From Okamejei kenojei (Eukaryota), in assembly GCA_035221665.1 (NCBI GenBank), contig CM069146.1, positions 10,540,001 to 10,604,000 of the forward strand: a DNA stretch of 64,000 nucleotides, written 5' to 3'. The translations under genes and the position numbers were made by a program. Shown here piece after piece: positions 17,296-62,357 of this stretch; position 1 is the stretch's first letter, and every line of letters starts with the position of its first letter. Below the pieces are notes generated by a model that did not search any database, was not told where the DNA came from, and worked only from the letters and a program-made list of their open reading frames with translations.

Positions 17296-17420
17296 AGCGT
17301 TCATGCAGTGCACCCGCGACGAACGGGAGTTCAAGGCGCTCCCACTACATCGGGCCGACAGGTAAGTTTTACCGTGGCCGTGTGTCTTTTTCTCTGTGGT
17401 CTGCTTGTTTTCCAGATAGA

Positions 17421-18658
17421 ATGAGCAAGACCAGAGGGAAGAAATCTGCAGCTCGCCCCCATTCGTCCTCCGTTGAGGAATGCTCTTTGGAGGGGGGGCA
17501 AGAGGCGGCGGGAATAACTACCGAGCCGAGCCCAGCACCGCTCGTGCAGCCTGAGCAGCGGGCTGGAGGTACCTGCAGCCAGAACCGGGCGGTAGTGTCC
17601 GACGATTCGGATGAAGATGCCACACCGCTCGAGAGCAACACAGGCAGCCGCCTAAGCCGAATGGAACGGCTTATACAGCAATTGCTCCAGCGAGATCTGC
17701 TGAGAGAGCAGCAGCAGACTCGCCAAGGGAGCTCAGACACTCCCGCAGTGCCCTTTACGGCACTGGCCATTGCTTCACCTTCTTTTGAAGGCAGCATTGG
17801 CGACCAGGTCTGGGCTGGTCAAGAAGAGGGGTCGCTGGCTGAAGATGTCCGGAGTACGCAGGGTGTACAGGATCAGGAAGAGCTGCTGGGTGTGGTCAAC
17901 CGCTACGTGTCCATTCCACGAGCGGGTCGGCCGTTAGAGCCGAAACTTGCAGCCAGCATTGACCACCTGTCCTCAAAACCCCTACAAGAACAGGTGGTCA
18001 ATGAAGCTCTTGAACAATATACAGCCCCAGAAAATTGTACATCATTGAATGTACCAGCTGTAAACAGCCAAATTTGGGGACATTTGGGGCAGAACATCAG
18101 GAACCTGGAGTTGAAGCTCCAGAAAATCCTTAAACTCCTGACTGCAGGAATAACATCATATGCTCGGTCCATTAATGGTGTGGACATCTCCACAAATCAG
18201 CAAGACACATTAGCTCTGCTGTGCACCACTCAATATGAAATAAACAATTTACGGAAGGAAATCATCAAGCCTGCCCTCAACCCTAAATTTGCGGGACTTT
18301 GCAAAACACCGGGTTCAGAACCTCCAATTCTGCTCTTTCGGAAGGACCTTCCGAAAAAGGTGAAAGACCTAGAGGAAGAATCCAAGACCTTTGGTCTCGT
18401 GAGGGCAGGTTTGGGACCGAGCAGACCTAACAAACCCAGGCGGCAGTACCCCACGGCGTCCACCAGTCGTCGACCACCATATGGGACTGGTGAAAGCTCG
18501 GGGTCCGCAACCATTCCCCGTAAGCCTTTTTTAGGCCAGAGCGGACCCCATGGAAAATGCGCCACCCCCAACAACATCAACATCAACATCAACAGCAGCC
18601 CTCTACAGCCCAGCAGACGCCTCATCGTCCAGCGAAGAGGCAGAAGAAGCACCAGTAA
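17421..18658 (+). pseudogene. DIRS ORF1 (gag-like), probably frameshifted near 18535
   Basis: ATG at 17421 with motifs PENC.SLNVP.VN and LLF..DL..KVK. An alternative frame PWKMRHPQQHQ...KKHQ ends in TAA at 18656-18658, two nt before the pol ATG. Confidence 0.75.
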
Positions 18659-18660
18659 CC

Positions 18661-20238
18661 ATGGAGGTAGGTGGGTCTGGTTCCTCTCAGCATATGAGCA
18701 GTAGGGGCTCTATACTAACAGGGGGGAGATTGCACTTGTTTTTGGATGCATGGGAATCCATCACTAATGACTAATGACACTAATGACTCAGCAGCATTCA
18801 TGGCTATAAAATTGACTTTGTTCATGAAAACATTCCGCCAGTTCAGCATATACCCCAAAGAGTATTCACCCTCTCAGTCAAAGAGAAACAAGAGGGTCAA
18901 GCTGAACTGATGAGGCTACTAGCAAAAGGTGTCATTGAAAGAACAAAACATGAACCTTTGGAATTTGTGTCTAATATTTTCACTAAAATCAAAAAAGATG
19001 GTGGATGTCGCATCATCATTGACTTAACTACTTTAAACAAGTCTGTTAGGTATATACATTTCAAGATGGAAACTTTTGAAACAGCCAGACTATTGGTTTC
19101 TAGAGGGTACTTTCTAGCAAGCATTGATTTAAAAGATGCCTACTACTCAGTACCCATACACAAGGAGCATCGTAAATACTTAAAGTTTATCTGGATGAAA
19201 CAGCTATGGCAATTTAAAGCCTTACCAAATGGGCTAACCTCCGCTCCAAGGTTGTTCACTAAAATCTTAAAACCCGCCTTGGCATTATTGAGGAAACAAA
19301 AGCATATAGTCATGGCGTACTTAGACGACATTCTAATAGTAGGGGAAACCTTGGAGACAGCCATTTCGGCAGTAGCAGCCACCAAACGTTTGTTTGAAAC
19401 TTTGGGGTTTGTCATACATCCAGATAAATCCAATTTTACAACCATTCAAACGGATGCCAGTGCTTTGGGCTGGGGAGCAACTAACATGCAATCCAGCACA
19501 GGGGGCAGATGGACTAATTTTGAATCATCTTGCCTACAGACACGGGGTATCAACTACTTAGAAATGTTGGGTGCGTTTTATGGTTTAAAAGCATATTCAT
19601 CTAATACGCATCATGCACATGTCAGGTTGCAATTAGATAATACCACGGTGGTGGCTTATATCAACCACATGGGTGGTGTAAAGTCAATATCGTGTGACAA
19701 TTTGGTCAACCTAATCTGGCAATGGTGTGTCGAAAGACATATTTGGTTATCAGCAACTTACCTACCAGGTAAGCAAAATACAGTGGCAGACACCAGGTCA
19801 CGCAAATTCAATGATAACATCGAATGGATGTTAAATCCCAAAATATTTGCTGAAATTACAAAGCAATATGGCACACCAGATATCGATCTATTTGCATCCA
19901 GGCTGAATCACCAGGTACCAACGTATGTCACTTGGGAACCAGACCCTGAGGCAGCAGCAATTGATGCATTCTCGCTGCATTGGGGGAAAATGTTCTTTTA
20001 TGCTTTTCCTCCCTTCTGCCTCATCAGTCGGGTATTACGCAAGATTCAATTGGATTCCGCTTCAGGAATCTTGATAATACCCGACTGGCCTACACAGCCA
20101 TGGTTCCCAGTGGCCCTCGACATGGCTGATGAAACACCGTTGGAATTCCCCAGCAGTCGAGAATTATTAATCCACCCAGTGTCAGGCATTAGTCACCCGT
20201 GCCATGACAGAGTCAATCTCCTGGCTTGCAGATTCTAA
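18661..20238 (+). pseudogene. DIRS ORF2: reverse transcriptase, RNase H and adenine-methyltransferase-like domain
   Basis: Motifs IDLKDAY, LPNGL..APR.FTK, YLDD (19318-19329), TDAS..GWG, INYLE, DN, ADT.SR, DLFAS and YAFPPF. In-frame stops at 18772-18786 and an internal deletion near 19440. Confidence 0.92.
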
Positions 20239-21212
20239 AAAGACCTCTACTGGGCCTGGGACTGTCTGAGGACGCCATCAACATGATGACCGCATCCCAC
20301 CGGGAGTCCACCAGGAGACAATACCTGACCAACATAAGAAAATGGGAACGGTATTGCTCCAAAACAGGAACTACCTACACTACAGCTACAGCCACCAGTG
20401 TTGTGGAGTTTCTGGTTGGATTACATCGGGAAGGACTCAGCTACAGCGCCATTAATACAGCCAGGAGTGCGTTGTCAGCTTATTTGGTTCCAGCAGCAGG
20501 ACAACTGGCTTTGGGGTCCCATCCACTAGTGGTCAAAATCATGAGGGGCATTTTTAACACCAATTCCCCCAGACCAAGGTACACTCAGATCTGGGATGTC
20601 AGCATTGTACTGACGTACCTTAGGGGATGGCCACCACCCAGGTCACTCACGCTGGAACAACTTACTCTGAAATATGTCGTGCTCATGGCACTAGTGTCAG
20701 CTCAAAAGGTACAGTCCCTCCACCTTCTGAGGCTGGACAGCATGACAGAGTCATTGGACTGTTTCACATTTCATATTCAGGGACTGGTCAAACAAACTAG
20801 ACCAGGTACCACGCCTCCAGTCATGGAGTTCCGGGCATATTCATCTGACCCACGGCTGTGTGCCAAGACCCATCTCGCCAATTACATAGACACAACATAC
20901 AACTTAAGAGGGAGAGAAAAAGCCTTATGGATAAGCCACAAGAAGCCTCATGGTCAGGTGACGAGACAAACCATTTCAAGGTGGCTCAAGCAGGTGCTTA
21001 AGTCCGCGGGAGTCAATACAAATGTTTACAAATCTCACTCCACCAGGGCTGCATCTACGTCGGCGGCTAGGCGAATGGACGTGCCTATGGACCATATTCT
21101 GGCCAGAGCAGGATGGTCCTCGGAAAGAACTTTCCAAAGGTTTTATAATAAGCCGCTGGCGGAACCTGCTACATTTGCAGACAGAATTTTAGAGTCTGCA
21201 GCTAATATTTAA
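20226..21212 (+). CDS. DIRS tyrosine recombinase (first ATG at 20283; first catalytic Arg appears as Lys)
   Basis: Motifs YSAINTARSALS, HSTR and AGWS...F.RFY. VSAQKVQ stands where SAQR is expected. Confidence 0.9.
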   Translation: MQILKRPLLGLGLSEDAINMMTASHRESTRRQYLTNIRKWERYCSKTGTTYTTATATSVVEFLVGLHREGLSYSAINTARSALSAYLVPAAGQLALGSHPLVVKIMRGIFNTNSPRPRYTQIWDVSIVLTYLRGWPPPRSLTLEQLTLKYVVLMALVSAQKVQSLHLLRLDSMTESLDCFTFHIQGLVKQTRPGTTPPVMEFRAYSSDPRLCAKTHLANYIDTTYNLRGREKALWISHKKPHGQVTRQTISRWLKQVLKSAGVNTNVYKSHSTRAASTSAARRMDVPMDHILARAGWSSERTFQRFYNKPLAEPATFADRILESAANI

Positions 21213-56390: not shown

Positions 56391-58337
56391 GGGTACACAA
56401 AAGGCTGGAGAAACTCAGCGGGTGCAGCAGCATCTAAGGAACAAAGGAGATAGGCGACGTTTCGGGTCGAGACCCTTCTTCAGACTGGTCAGGGATCAGG
56501 GAAACTAGAGATATAGACGGTGATGTGGAGAGATAAAGAACAATGAATGAAAGATATGCAAAAAAGTATCGATGATAAAGGGAACAAGCCATTGTAAGCT
56601 GTTTGTGGTGTGAAAATGAGAAGCTAGTGCGACTAGGGTGGGGGAGAGAGATAGAGAGAGAGGGAATGCCAGGGCCCAAGGGCTGAGGGATAGGTGGGAA
56701 GGGGAGGAGACAGCAAGGGTTAACAGAATTGAGAACATTCAATGTTCAAGCCCAGAGGATGCAGACTCCCCAAGCGGAATATGAGGTGCTGTTCCTCCAA
56801 CTTGCGGTGTTGCTCACTCTGGCTGTGGAGGAGGCCCAGGACCAAGAGGTAGGATACAGGAGGGGGAGTTGAAGTGCTGAGCCACCAGGAGGTCGGGTTG
56901 GTTAATGCGGACCGAGCGGAGGTGTTCGGCAAAACGATCGCCAAGCCTCCGCTTGGTCTCACCGATCTAGATCATCTGGCATCTGGAGCAGCGGATGCAG
57001 TAGATGAGGTTGGAGGAAGTGCAGGTGAACCTCTGTTGGACCTGGAAGGACTGCTTGGGTCCCTGAAAGGAGTGGAGGGGGAGGTGAAGGGACAAGTGTA
57101 GCATTTCTTGCGGTTGCAAGGGAAAGTGCCCGGGGAAGGGGTAGAGCGGGAGGGAAGGGAAGAATTGACAAGGGAGTTGCGAGGGAGTGGTCTTTGCGGA
57201 AAGCAGACGGGGGGGAGATGGGAAGATGTGGCCAGTGGAGGGGTCACGTTGGAGGTGTAGAAACTGGCGGAGGACTATGTGTTGTATTTGCCGGCTGGTG
57301 GGGTGAAAGGTGAGGACCAGGGGGACTCTGCCCTTGTTGCGAGTGGGGGAATGGGGAGAGAGGGCAGTGTTGTGGGGTATGGAGGAGATCCTGGTGTGAG
57401 CCTCATCTATAGTGGGGGAGGGGAATCCCCGTTCTCTGAAGAATGAGGTCATTTGTGATGACCTGGTGTGGAACACCTCATCCTGGGAGCAGATGCGGCA
57501 TATACGGAGGAATTGGGAATAGGGGATGGAGTCCTTACAGGATGGAGGGTGGGAGGAAGAGTAGTCCAGGTAGCTGTGGGAGTCAGTTGGTTTGTAGTGG
57601 ATGTCGGTCAGGAGTGTATCACCTGCAATAGAGATGGTGAGGTCAAGGAATGGTAGGGAAATGTCAGAAATGGTCCAAGTGTATTTGAGTGCCGGATGGA
57701 AGTTGGTGGTGAAATGGATGAAGTCAGTCAGTGGTGTGTGGGTGCAGGAGGTGACATCAAAGCAGTCATCGATGTAACGGAGGTAAAGGTCGGGGATGGG
57801 GCCCTGGTACGCTGAGAACAAGGATTGTTCGACGTACCCGACAAAGAGGCAAGCGTAGCTGGGGCCCATGCGTGTGCCCATAGCTACGCCTTGTGTTTGG
57901 AGGAAATGGGAGGAGTCAAAAGAGAAGTTATTGAGGGTAAGGACCAACTCCGCTAGGCGGAGGAGGGTATCAGTGGACGGGTATGGGTTGCTCCTCTGGT
58001 CGAGGAAGAACCGGAGGGCTTTGAGACCGTCCTGGTGGGGGATGGAGGTGTAGAGTGACTGGATGTCCATGGTAAAGATGAGAGAAACGGGGCCTGGAGA
58101 ATGGAATGCGTGGAGCCGACGGAGAATGTCTGAGGTGTCTTGAACATAGGTGGGGAGGGATTTAACAAAGGGGGATAGGATGGAGTCAAGGTATGTGGAA
58201 ATGTGTTCGGTGGGGCACGAACAGGCAGAGACAATGGGTCTGCCAGGGCAGTCGGGTTTGTGGATTTTGGGGAGAAGGTAAAATCGGGCCGTGCGGGGCT
58301 GGGAAACGATGAGGTCGGAGGCTCGGGGGGGGTAGGG
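56391..58337 (-). mobile_element. 5'-truncated Penelope-like element (RT, GIY-YIG endonuclease and terminal repeat)
   Basis: Motifs FYLLPKIHK, GRPIVS, DIQSLYT, GVAMG, YLRYIDD, FLDL, CNRKKCYTC and LIYCI.C...*IGET.R.L..RF.EH. Confidence 0.93.
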
Positions 58338-58449
58338 AGCCGCAGCTGATGAAGTCAATTATTGCAGGTTATCCTGTATCTGTCTGTTTTTACAGCTATA
58401 GAACTTGGAGCTGGTCCGGTTGCATTTCTGGACTACTGCAACTTTTATT

Positions 58450-60095: not shown

Positions 60096-61610
60096 AACAC
60101 AGTTTTGCACAACAATGAATACACACCAAGTAATTCAAAGCCTACTCTTAAAGTGGAGCTCGTTTGTGAACTTTCCACAGTATTCTAGCTGCACTTCCTG
60201 AAGCGGAGAAACAGGCCATAGTGGTTCCCAGCAAAGGTCGCCCAATTAGACCGTAATAATAACTTGAGAAAAATAATATATGAATCACATAAGTGGCAGT
60301 TGGTGATAGCATTGAACCCATCTTAAATTTAATAGTCCAGGTTATCAGAATTACAAAGCAAGATTCCATAAGTGGGTCAACCCTTGTTTCATAGTAGGGG
60401 AACCAATATCAATATCAACTTTCTGGCTTTCCAATTACAGTCCTAAGGTAAATAAACTATTTAATTCAGATTAATTATGCATCTTGTCAGTGTGAAGGTC
60501 TTGATTGTGTTCTAGTTCCCAGTAAGTATGAAGCTAATTCAATGAGGCTTGCACAAATAATTAACTATGTTAAATAATAAAGCCATCTTTACACCCAAAA
60601 TCTCACCCCTCCAAATCACCATCTTTTTGTGTGTGTGTGACTTTAAAGAAATAATGATAAAAAGGGGAATCATAACCATTTCTTTCTCACAAATGCCAAA
60701 TCACTATCAGAATAGTTACTAACCATTAGTGCAGCTGAGCAATTTAAACCGAATCACCAGTTTTAGTGAATATGGTAAAAAAAATAAAATATATACCTGT
60801 AATAAAATTAATTTAGTATGTATTTGTACTTTTCTAATATTTGGCAGTTCAAATATACGAGCAATTTAATTCAGTTTTAGTATTTTTGTTTCTTTAACAG
60901 TCAGAAACATTTAGGATATTTCTGACATGTTTGACAGCCAGCTAAGCTAATGATCGTCTGTCAAATATTTGTTCTGCTTTTCCTAACCAATACTTCCAAA
61001 TTCCCTTAAACACTTCCTTTCCCCTTGGTGAGACAGTAACGTTACGACAATTTCAGGAAAGGATTTCGCACTGGGGAAATTGACAACATGTACAGATATG
61101 ATGTAGGTAAGTACATGGCACTCACCACAGAACTGTATAAAAATATCTCTTGTCCTTAGCTAAGCTGTGCATAAAAACATGTTAACCTATATTTGCTTTA
61201 GCACATAGAATAATACAGTACAGAAACAGACCTTTCAGCCCAACTCATCCATGCTGACAAAGATGCTTATCATATGCCAGGCATTTTCCTGCCTTGGGCC
61301 CCACATTAAATGTAGAGAGGTACAACACAAGAGCAGGTCCCTCAGCCCACGTCTCAACTCCTTTCCTATTCATGAACCTGTCCAAATGTCTTTTTAACAT
61401 TTAACCTGCCTTTACCACCTCCTCTGGCAGCTCGTTCCATACTCCACATGACAAACATACCACTCAGATCCCATTTATATCTATTCCTTCTCACCTTAAA
61501 TCTCTAGTTTCAGACCGGGAAGAAAGTGATTTTCTGCTCTATCTGTGCCCCTCATAATCTTATCATCCCCCAGCCCCCTTCACTCCAAAGCAAACAAACC
61601 CAGCAGATCA

Positions 61611-61683
61611 GCTGAAATTGCTCAGTTGGGAGAGCGTTACCCTGAAGATCTAAATGTCCATGGTTCAATCCCAAGTTTCAGCA
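61611..61683 (+). pseudogene. tRNA-Phe(GAA) pseudogene, 73 nt, no CCA
   Basis: It differs from the canonical vertebrate tRNA-Phe at about 10 positions. The anticodon stem is disrupted (TTACC vs TTAGA); the GAA anticodon and A/B boxes are recognisable. Confidence 0.88.
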
Positions 61684-61700
61684 ATACTGCCGTTTATTTC

Positions 61701-61814
61701 TGGGAGAGGCAAGAGAATGCAGTTAGGAACGAGAGATAGATCAGCCATGATTAAATGACGGAGTAGACTTGATGGACTGAATGGCCTCATTTGCTGCTAT
61801 CACGAATGAACATG
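61701..61814 (+). mobile_element. CR1 3' UTR fused behind the tRNA-Phe copy
   Basis: GATCAGCCATGATTAAATG.CGGAGTAGACTTGATGGACTGAATGGCCT is homologous to 38047-38185. Confidence 0.85.
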
Positions 61815-62357
61815 CTTATCTAACCTTGCCTTTTAACTCAAGCCCTCCAGTCCAGCCAACATGCCTGCGATTTTTTTCTGCACCCTCTCTAACTTAATCA
61901 CATCCCTCCCTAGCATGGCATCCAGAACTGCACACAATCACAGCCCTCTTCACAATTAGTAAAATTTAGTAAGTGAAAAATATCATTAAAATATATTGAA
62001 TTGATGCAATAGTTCCCATCTGACTAGTTAGCTACAGATATAACAAAATTTTAAAGGACCATGAGCACCCATAAAGTATTTTATGACATCAAGTGCACAG
62101 CCAAGAATTGGCAAGAGTCTTTGCCTGACTGAACTATACAGGTGGGCATAAGAACTTGCAAAAAATTAAATTAAAAAAATGTAGTTCAACAAAATCTAGC
62201 TGTCACTGCATATAATTCACATCCTTATGTACCACCCATTTCTATTAAAATTGGCTGATCTCCACTTTCAAAGTATTCGATGACAAAACATTCCACAGTC
62301 CACAGGAAGAGTCACAGAATTTTTGAAATTATCCTAATCCTAAATGTTGACAGTTGC

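What the first reader, a model, noticed from the sequence alone, without database searches (positions are those of the whole stretch)
61605..61814. Pre-tRNA-Phe fused to a CR1 3' end: a possible SINE at birth
Seen: an opposite-strand CR1 is interrupted by a ~210-bp insert made of a 6-nt leader AGATCA, a complete 73-nt tRNA-Phe without CCA, a ~17-nt trailer ATACTGCCGTTTATTTC(T), and a CR1 3' UTR in the same orientation. Established: many SINEs, including elasmobranch HE1, are a tRNA head plus a LINE tail, and LINE RTs form chimeras by template switching (e.g. U6-L1). Inference: CR1 RT switched onto an unprocessed Pol III precursor; with A/B boxes and a LINE tail the product could have been remobilised. 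It lacks the V-domain of HE1.
Basis: partly seen in the sequence, partly recalled or inferred. Interest (0 to 1): 0.7.

Follow-up and report, generated by a model that had tools for sequence, protein, structure and literature searches.

The report
Unprocessed tRNA captured by a retrotransposon
This is an old, single, decayed copy of an unprocessed tRNA transcript joined to the tail of a jumping gene, likely made when the element's reverse transcriptase jumped onto that transcript; it did not spread, but the genome holds dozens of such fusions, often near their source gene, and one of them appears to have become a small new repeat family.

Summary
Observation confirmed. 61605-61814 interrupts a minus-strand LINE ORF2; 11 of 24 sister copies run straight across the site. 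Its head matches one intact tRNA-Phe gene, 12 Mb away on the same contig, from leader to T4 terminator and no further. Its tail is the 3' end of an abundant CR1-type LINE.

It is not a SINE at birth. The junction occurs once, the head has decayed (13 of 94 changes), and the insert is shared with related organisms.

It belongs to a genome-wide class: about 25 pre-tRNA fusions to SINE 5' ends or LINE 3' pieces, all in sense orientation. 9 of 15 with an assigned parent lie on the parent's contig. A tRNA-Lys/trailer/repeat-tail fusion has at least 16 dispersed copies with one junction; two share many private changes, which indicates remobilisation.

Likely mechanism: reverse-transcriptase template jump onto nascent pre-tRNA. 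It works like U6-LINE chimeras. The scan noted other RNA-SINE chimeras in other genomes, not this class.

The parts
61360..61604 (-). Host LINE (CR1-type, inferred) ORF2 C-terminal fragment, downstream half
   Evidence: aligns to sister copies up to 61602-61604; translation begins LGLF
61605..61606 (+). Two bases at the 5' junction, either eroded leader or untemplated
   Evidence: parent has a different second base here
61607..61610 (+). Pre-tRNA 5' leader, 3 of 4 identical to parent gene L032 (one CpG change)
61611..61683 (+). Decayed full-length tRNA-Phe(GAA) copy without CCA; 9 of 73 changes from parent, 3 cloverleaf pairs broken
61684..61701 (+). Pre-tRNA 3' trailer up to the parent's T4 terminator, now TTTC; 61701 is the junction base
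61702..61814 (+). 3' end of an abundant CR1-type LINE: last codons of ORF2 (stop at 61724-61726 in many copies), 3' UTR and short terminal repeat
61815..61940 (-). Host LINE ORF2 fragment, upstream half; translation ends RLDK
61831..61834 (+). First T4 run after the tRNA, in host DNA; the predicted Pol III stop if the locus were transcribed

Best explanation
This is a single, old, decayed chimeric retrocopy: an unprocessed pre-tRNA-Phe (leader, body, trailer to the terminator) from an identified gene on the same contig is joined to 113 nt of a LINE 3' end inside another LINE copy, likely because the LINE reverse transcriptase, copying its own RNA at the target site, jumped onto the U-ending 3' end of a nascent pre-tRNA. 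Shown: anatomy, parent gene, empty site, single copy, presence in related organisms, and about 25 similar fusions. Inferred: one event rather than two; template jump rather than RNA ligation; capture in the nucleus near the tRNA gene. It likely failed as a SINE because no productive transcript arose; an intact tRNA head would be cut from its tail by tRNA 3' processing (inference from general knowledge, untested).
For: Parent L032 shares leader and trailer, and far flanks score no better than shuffles; the same holds for all 15 parent-daughter pairs examined, the highest being 14 against a shuffle maximum of 13. Host frame is contiguous in 11 of 24 sister copies. Head and tail have similar decay: 13 of 94 with 4 at CpG and 14 of 101 from the majority of 29 copies, inflated by a misplaced gap. 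An organism B contig covers 61418-61742 with 14 changes and no gap. Orientation: 7 of 11 'B box, TT, SINE start' hits carry a tRNA match of 60 nt or more, against 0 of 29 hits with the SINE end in antisense. Some heads are 5'-truncated (L105; L104 by recall a tRNA-Pro piece), as expected of cDNA. L200 and L202 join tRNA-Ala to the same LINE tail, L200 at the same point. 3 of 30 U6 loci are fused directly to CR1-type pieces. Many SINE partners start at their 5' end; RtcB ligation was strongly reduced by a 5' triphosphate (PMC6789731, passages). Template jumping by a non-LTR RT is favoured by a 1-nt untemplated overhang pairing with the acceptor 3' end (PMC8594491, passages). 9 of 15 assigned daughters lie on the parent's contig, about 2% expected each (binomial 4e-12); 5 of 11 if near-intact heads are dropped (2e-6).
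Against: No orthologous empty site was seen, so a two-step history before the species splits is not formally excluded (tables were cut). The duplication is 1-2 bp and carries no weight. For 5'-truncated LINE partners such as this one, ligation to a cut LINE RNA fits as well as a jump. Parents were assigned by eye; L144 and L302 are weak. Four SINE-fused heads (L049, L047, L304, L306) are far better kept than their partners (Fisher p 0.03 to 3e-9), so they may be real genes with a SINE placed at the terminator. The antisense control uses a different motif and a tRNA library limited to isotypes in my loci; relaxed ARAGORN called 4 of its 29 loci, which I read by eye as SINE heads or chance.
Confidence: 0.8

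Rival explanations
1. RNA ligation before retrotransposition: a pre-tRNA end was ligated (RtcB-type) to a cleaved LINE RNA and the fused RNA was then copied.
For: Shown for U6/L1 (PMC6789731, passages). Two independent fusions (window, L200) join at the same LINE position, which could be a cleavage site.
Against: It needs a cyclic-phosphate 3' end and a 5'-OH partner. Pre-tRNA trailers end in U-OH (recalled). Many partners here begin at the SINE 5' end. The shared position could equally be a G-rich RT stall site.
Confidence: 0.1
2. Two separate insertions: a tailless pre-tRNA retrocopy and a short LINE copy landed next to each other at different times.
For: Pre-tRNA retropseudogenes are reported in human (cited in PMC4476161, passage). 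Short 5'-truncated copies of this LINE are common.
Against: No host base lies between the parts; they have similar decay; both are present in organism B; and the same arrangement recurs, always in sense.
Confidence: 0.05
3. The locus is or was a SINE master or a member of a hidden tRNA-Phe/CR1 SINE family.
For: The B box is intact, the terminator is lost, and the next T4 lies just past the tail. A sibling tRNA-Lys fusion did spread.
Against: The junction pattern gives 1 hit, itself. The other trailer-bearing copies have SINE partners. None of the 39 other top hits to the whole insert reaches the tRNA (40 of 1792 candidates scored).
Confidence: 0.04
4. DNA-level copying of a tRNA gene followed by LINE insertion at its terminator.
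For: It would explain the closeness to parent genes and the intact heads of some other loci.
Against: Homology to the parent ends at transcript boundaries, and the insert sits inside a LINE ORF that is otherwise contiguous.
Confidence: 0.01

Closest known systems
U6-LINE and U6-SINE chimeric retrocopies (U6-L1; U6-L2 and U6-Mon-1 in platypus; U6-AnolisSINE2; PMC4476161, passages and section 10 read)
   Same: Pol III RNA ending in a U run, fused in sense to a 5'-truncated LINE or a SINE; short duplications with L2-type elements; one-off copies. This genome has U6 versions too.
   Different: The 5' partner is an unprocessed pre-tRNA whose leader and trailer identify the source gene, which makes the position of the parent testable. 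It carries an internal promoter, which U6 lacks (recalled). That paper found only one unresolved U6-CR1 case.
Human tRNA/LINE-1 chimeras (bioRxiv 10.1101/2025.02.02.635956, outline and sections 21, 29 read)
   Same: tRNA sequence inserted together with a LINE 3' part.
   Different: Those 21 loci are mostly tRNA halves in antisense, ascribed to twin priming. Here the tRNA is whole, in sense, with leader and trailer.
TguSINE1 and PittSINE, tRNA-head/CR1-tail SINEs of passerine birds (PMC5729268, passages read)
   Same: tRNA plus CR1 tail; the authors propose a template switch to a nearby tRNA as the origin.
   Different: Those are amplified families and the intermediate is hypothetical. This locus is an unamplified product of that kind; the tRNA-Lys sibling is the amplified case.
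HE1 V-SINE of sharks and rays (listed with partner HER1 in the table of PMC3747384; the V-domain definition is recalled)
   Same: tRNA-derived head plus LINE-derived tail in a cartilaginous fish.
   Different: No central domain, a near-intact tRNA-Phe head, single copy, and a tail unlike that of the genome's abundant SINE.

Membership tests
LINE-made chimeric retrocopy (small RNA 5', retroelement 3') | 5' part is a copy of a cellular RNA bounded by transcript ends | tested here: met
   match runs from leader to T4 and stops
LINE-made chimeric retrocopy (small RNA 5', retroelement 3') | 3' part is a 5'-truncated retroelement with its natural 3' end, same orientation | tested here: met
LINE-made chimeric retrocopy (small RNA 5', retroelement 3') | Clean insertion relative to an empty site | tested here: met
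   11 of 24 paralogous host copies contiguous within 2 nt
LINE-made chimeric retrocopy (small RNA 5', retroelement 3') | One target-site duplication around both parts | tested here: inconclusive
   only 1-2 bp shared
LINE-made chimeric retrocopy (small RNA 5', retroelement 3') | Both parts arrive together in orthologues | tested here: inconclusive
   B bridges left and internal junctions; G bridges the left and nearly the internal one; C and D the right one; no orthologous empty site seen
SINE (tRNA-derived) | Several dispersed copies sharing the head-tail junction | tested here: not met
   1 hit; searches show no second copy
SINE (tRNA-derived) | Internal Pol III A and B boxes | tested here: inconclusive
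   B box region unchanged from the parent, one change at 61619 in the A box region (box positions recalled)
SINE (tRNA-derived) | Pol III transcription of the unit | not testable with these tools
   no RNA holder listed
HE1 / V-SINE | Central V-domain between head and tail | tested here: not met
   head and tail account for the whole insert; no V-domain reference was aligned
CR1 clade (tail donor and host) | RT phylogeny within CR1 | not tested
   homologues are RT-bearing LINE proteins of cartilaginous fish and birds; RVT_1 in a neighbouring sister-family copy; no tree built

The most novel reading that the evidence does not exclude
This genome preserves the whole SINE-birth series: LINE reverse transcriptases capture nascent pre-tRNAs near their genes, most products die as single copies like this one, some survive as working tRNA retrogenes, and one tRNA-Lys fusion became a new minimal SINE with secondary masters.
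Probability: 0.5. Interest if true: 0.72.

Novelty: new variant of a known kind. Interest (0 to 1): 0.52.

Why it matters
The standard account of SINE origin, a tRNA gaining a LINE tail by template switching, rests mostly on finished families. Leader and trailer act as a barcode for the source gene, so here each event can be traced. That makes three questions countable in one genome: where capture happens (strong excess on the parent's contig), how often a fusion is copied on (one family against about 25 single events in a partial survey of four isotypes), and whether fusions seed new tRNA genes. The locus alone is a dead pseudogene; the interest lies in the class.

Tried and rejected
junction pattern out of register; it missed the window itself, so it is invalid and was replaced; first empty-site test found only self hits; resolved it. 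L065 has the trailer motif but no tRNA, counted as chance. L106, L108, L111 have no tRNA, counted as chance; L245 likewise. L042 and L046 are intact tRNA-Phe next to repeat tails without a parent and were left unassigned. Three Lys fusions on C9 (L293, L190, L296; 0.6-4.1 Mb from gene L292) were left out of the proximity count because leaders match poorly. The C22 Ala-SINE cluster shares flanks and was counted once. The paired 3:70 change in the acceptor stem is two CpG decays, not selection. Folding of the predicted read-through RNA is no better than shuffles (z 1.05), nor is that of the Lys composite (z 0.45). A duplication search on the Lys copies gave only 5-6 bp chance-level matches. Pfam does not cover the ORF2 C-terminus. 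No RNA holder listed. Organisms E and F gave no junction-spanning piece. Literature: searches listed no paper on sense, full-length pre-tRNA fusions with CR1-type LINEs or on their closeness to parent genes. The library lacks most subscription journals, I saw Schmitz 2004 and the HE1 paper only as citations, repeat databases were not available, and the supplements of the bioRxiv preprint could not be seen and may list precursor-type cases.

Full report
The window lies at G000:C16:10540001-10604000; homologues of its LINE proteins point to a cartilaginous fish. ARAGORN and Rfam find one tRNA in the window, tRNA-Phe at 61611-61683. Bases 61702-61814 match a very abundant repeat: all 39 non-self top hits cover only this part (40 of 1792 candidates scored). 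Copies that extend upstream translate into a LINE ORF2 C-terminus whose homologues are RT proteins of sharks, rays and birds. I call it CR1-type by inference. The flanks are two halves of another LINE ORF2 on the minus strand. The frame reads RLDK on one side and LGLF on the other, and 11 of 24 sister copies are contiguous there within 2 nt. The duplication is 1-2 bp.

The head has a parent. Among 40 scored hits of 63 candidates, the best non-self hit is an intact tRNA-Phe gene, L032, 12.2 Mb away on the same contig. It shares a 4-nt leader and a 17-nt trailer ending in T4; the window differs at 13 of 94 positions, 4 of them CpG. Beyond these limits the flanks are unrelated. The copied unit is therefore the primary Pol III transcript. 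Three cloverleaf pairs are broken and the terminator is lost.

It is old and single. A contig of organism B covers 61418-61742 with 14 changes and no gap, bridging the left and the tRNA-LINE junctions; contigs of C and D bridge the right junction. In organism G, contigs bridge the left junction, and one crosses the internal junction with 25 aligned bases and a loose end that continues as tail. E and F gave nothing decisive. No orthologous empty site was seen. A 30-nt junction pattern with up to 3 mismatches hits only the window (one search was faulty). The trailer pattern hits 5 places: window, parent, two pre-tRNA-Phe copies fused to the genome's abundant SINE (L034, L048), and one without a tRNA.

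It is one of a class. A pattern for B box, short spacer, TT and SINE start gave 11 hits; 7 carry a tRNA match of 60 nt or more, and an eighth looks like a truncated tRNA-Pro by recall. The antisense counterpart gave 29 hits, none with such a match. Surveys of Phe, Asn, Lys and Ala copies (30, 19, 30, 14, 6 and 12 loci fetched) gave, by my reading fusions to the SINE and 7 to LINE-like 3' pieces including this one. L200 joins tRNA-Ala to the same tail at the same point as the window. U6 does the same: 3 of 30 loci are fused to CR1-type pieces.

Parents are often near. Fifteen events could be assigned to five genes by leader and trailer. Nine lie on the parent's contig and six within 2 Mb; each contig is about 2% of the genome or less (binomial 4e-12). 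Without the four near-intact heads it is 5 of 11 (2e-6). Assignments were made by eye and two are weak. This fits capture of nascent transcripts where they are concentrated; that reading is inferred.

One sibling spread. Sixteen of 40 scored hits to a tRNA-Lys/trailer/70-nt-tail query span head and tail, on 12 contigs. Thirteen were aligned: they share the junction and, apart from two short repeat matches, have unrelated flanks. The tail is the end of a longer repeat; of the 30 tail loci fetched, 3 had a tRNA head by BLAST. Two further copies on C21 and C17 differ at 3 of about 150 positions while sharing many private changes, which independent jumps cannot explain. Whether this family is already named in repeat databases I could not check.

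Mechanism. Most likely the LINE RT began at the LINE 3' end, stopped after 113 nt and jumped to the U-ending pre-tRNA, copying it to its 5' end. Non-LTR RTs jump end to end, helped by a short untemplated overhang (PMC8594491, passages). RtcB ligation explains U6/L1 but needs a cyclic phosphate and a 5'-OH (PMC6789731, passages), which fits full-length SINE partners poorly; it remains possible for this locus. Several SINE-fused heads are much better kept than their partners, as is L310 in the Lys family (0 of 73 against 7 of 62, p 0.004). These may be working retrogenes or older genes with an element at the terminator; this is open.

Comparison. It works like U6-LINE/SINE chimeras (PMC4476161). 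It differs from human tRNA/L1 chimeras, which are mostly antisense halves (10.1101/2025.02.02.635956). It is the kind of intermediate proposed for passerine tRNA-CR1 SINEs (PMC5729268). PMC4494074 (passages) gives the criterion used here for telling a family from a sum of independent chimeras. It fails membership in SINEs on copy number and in HE1 on the central domain. Nine literature searches listed no description of this class, within the limits of the library.

Verdict: new variant of a known kind. The locus is a dead pseudogene. The traceable class around it, with its local bias and one successful family, gives interest 0.52.

Noticed in passing
L310-L317, L319, L323, L324, L331, L336, L340-L342 (e.g. 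G000:C9:23252026-23252178): Low-copy candidate SINE of about 150 nt: near-intact tRNA-Lys(CTT), trailer, and a 70-nt repeat tail; at least 16 dispersed copies; two share many private changes.
   Followed up: partly
L049, L047, L304, L306, L308, L310: Fused tRNA heads with 0-1 changes beside clearly decayed partners; possible working tRNA retrogenes.
   Followed up: partly
L305 (G000:C25:13.81 Mb): One tRNA-Ala gene is the likely source of up to 8 fusion events, 3 within 0.8 Mb.
   Followed up: yes
L261, L262, L274; L271: U6 fused to CR1-type 3' pieces; many other U6 copies have A-rich tails with long duplications. In L271 the U6 A-tail is followed by a sequence that looks like U1 snRNA (recalled, untested).
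   Followed up: partly
window 17298-21212 (+): Three long overlapping ORFs: an unnamed one, RT/RNase H/methyltransferase, and a tyrosine recombinase; layout of a DIRS-type retrotransposon (family name recalled).
   Followed up: partly
window 56967-58358 (-): 463-aa RT ORF, weak RVT_1 hit, Penelope-like by recall.
   Followed up: partly
G000:C35 about 3.7-8.6 Mb: Large tandem arrays of tRNA genes (Phe, Lys, Asn), many copies decayed.
   Followed up: no
L299-L303, L204 (G000:C22:28.2-28.4 Mb): One tRNA-Ala/SINE fusion multiplied by local segmental duplication.
   Followed up: yes
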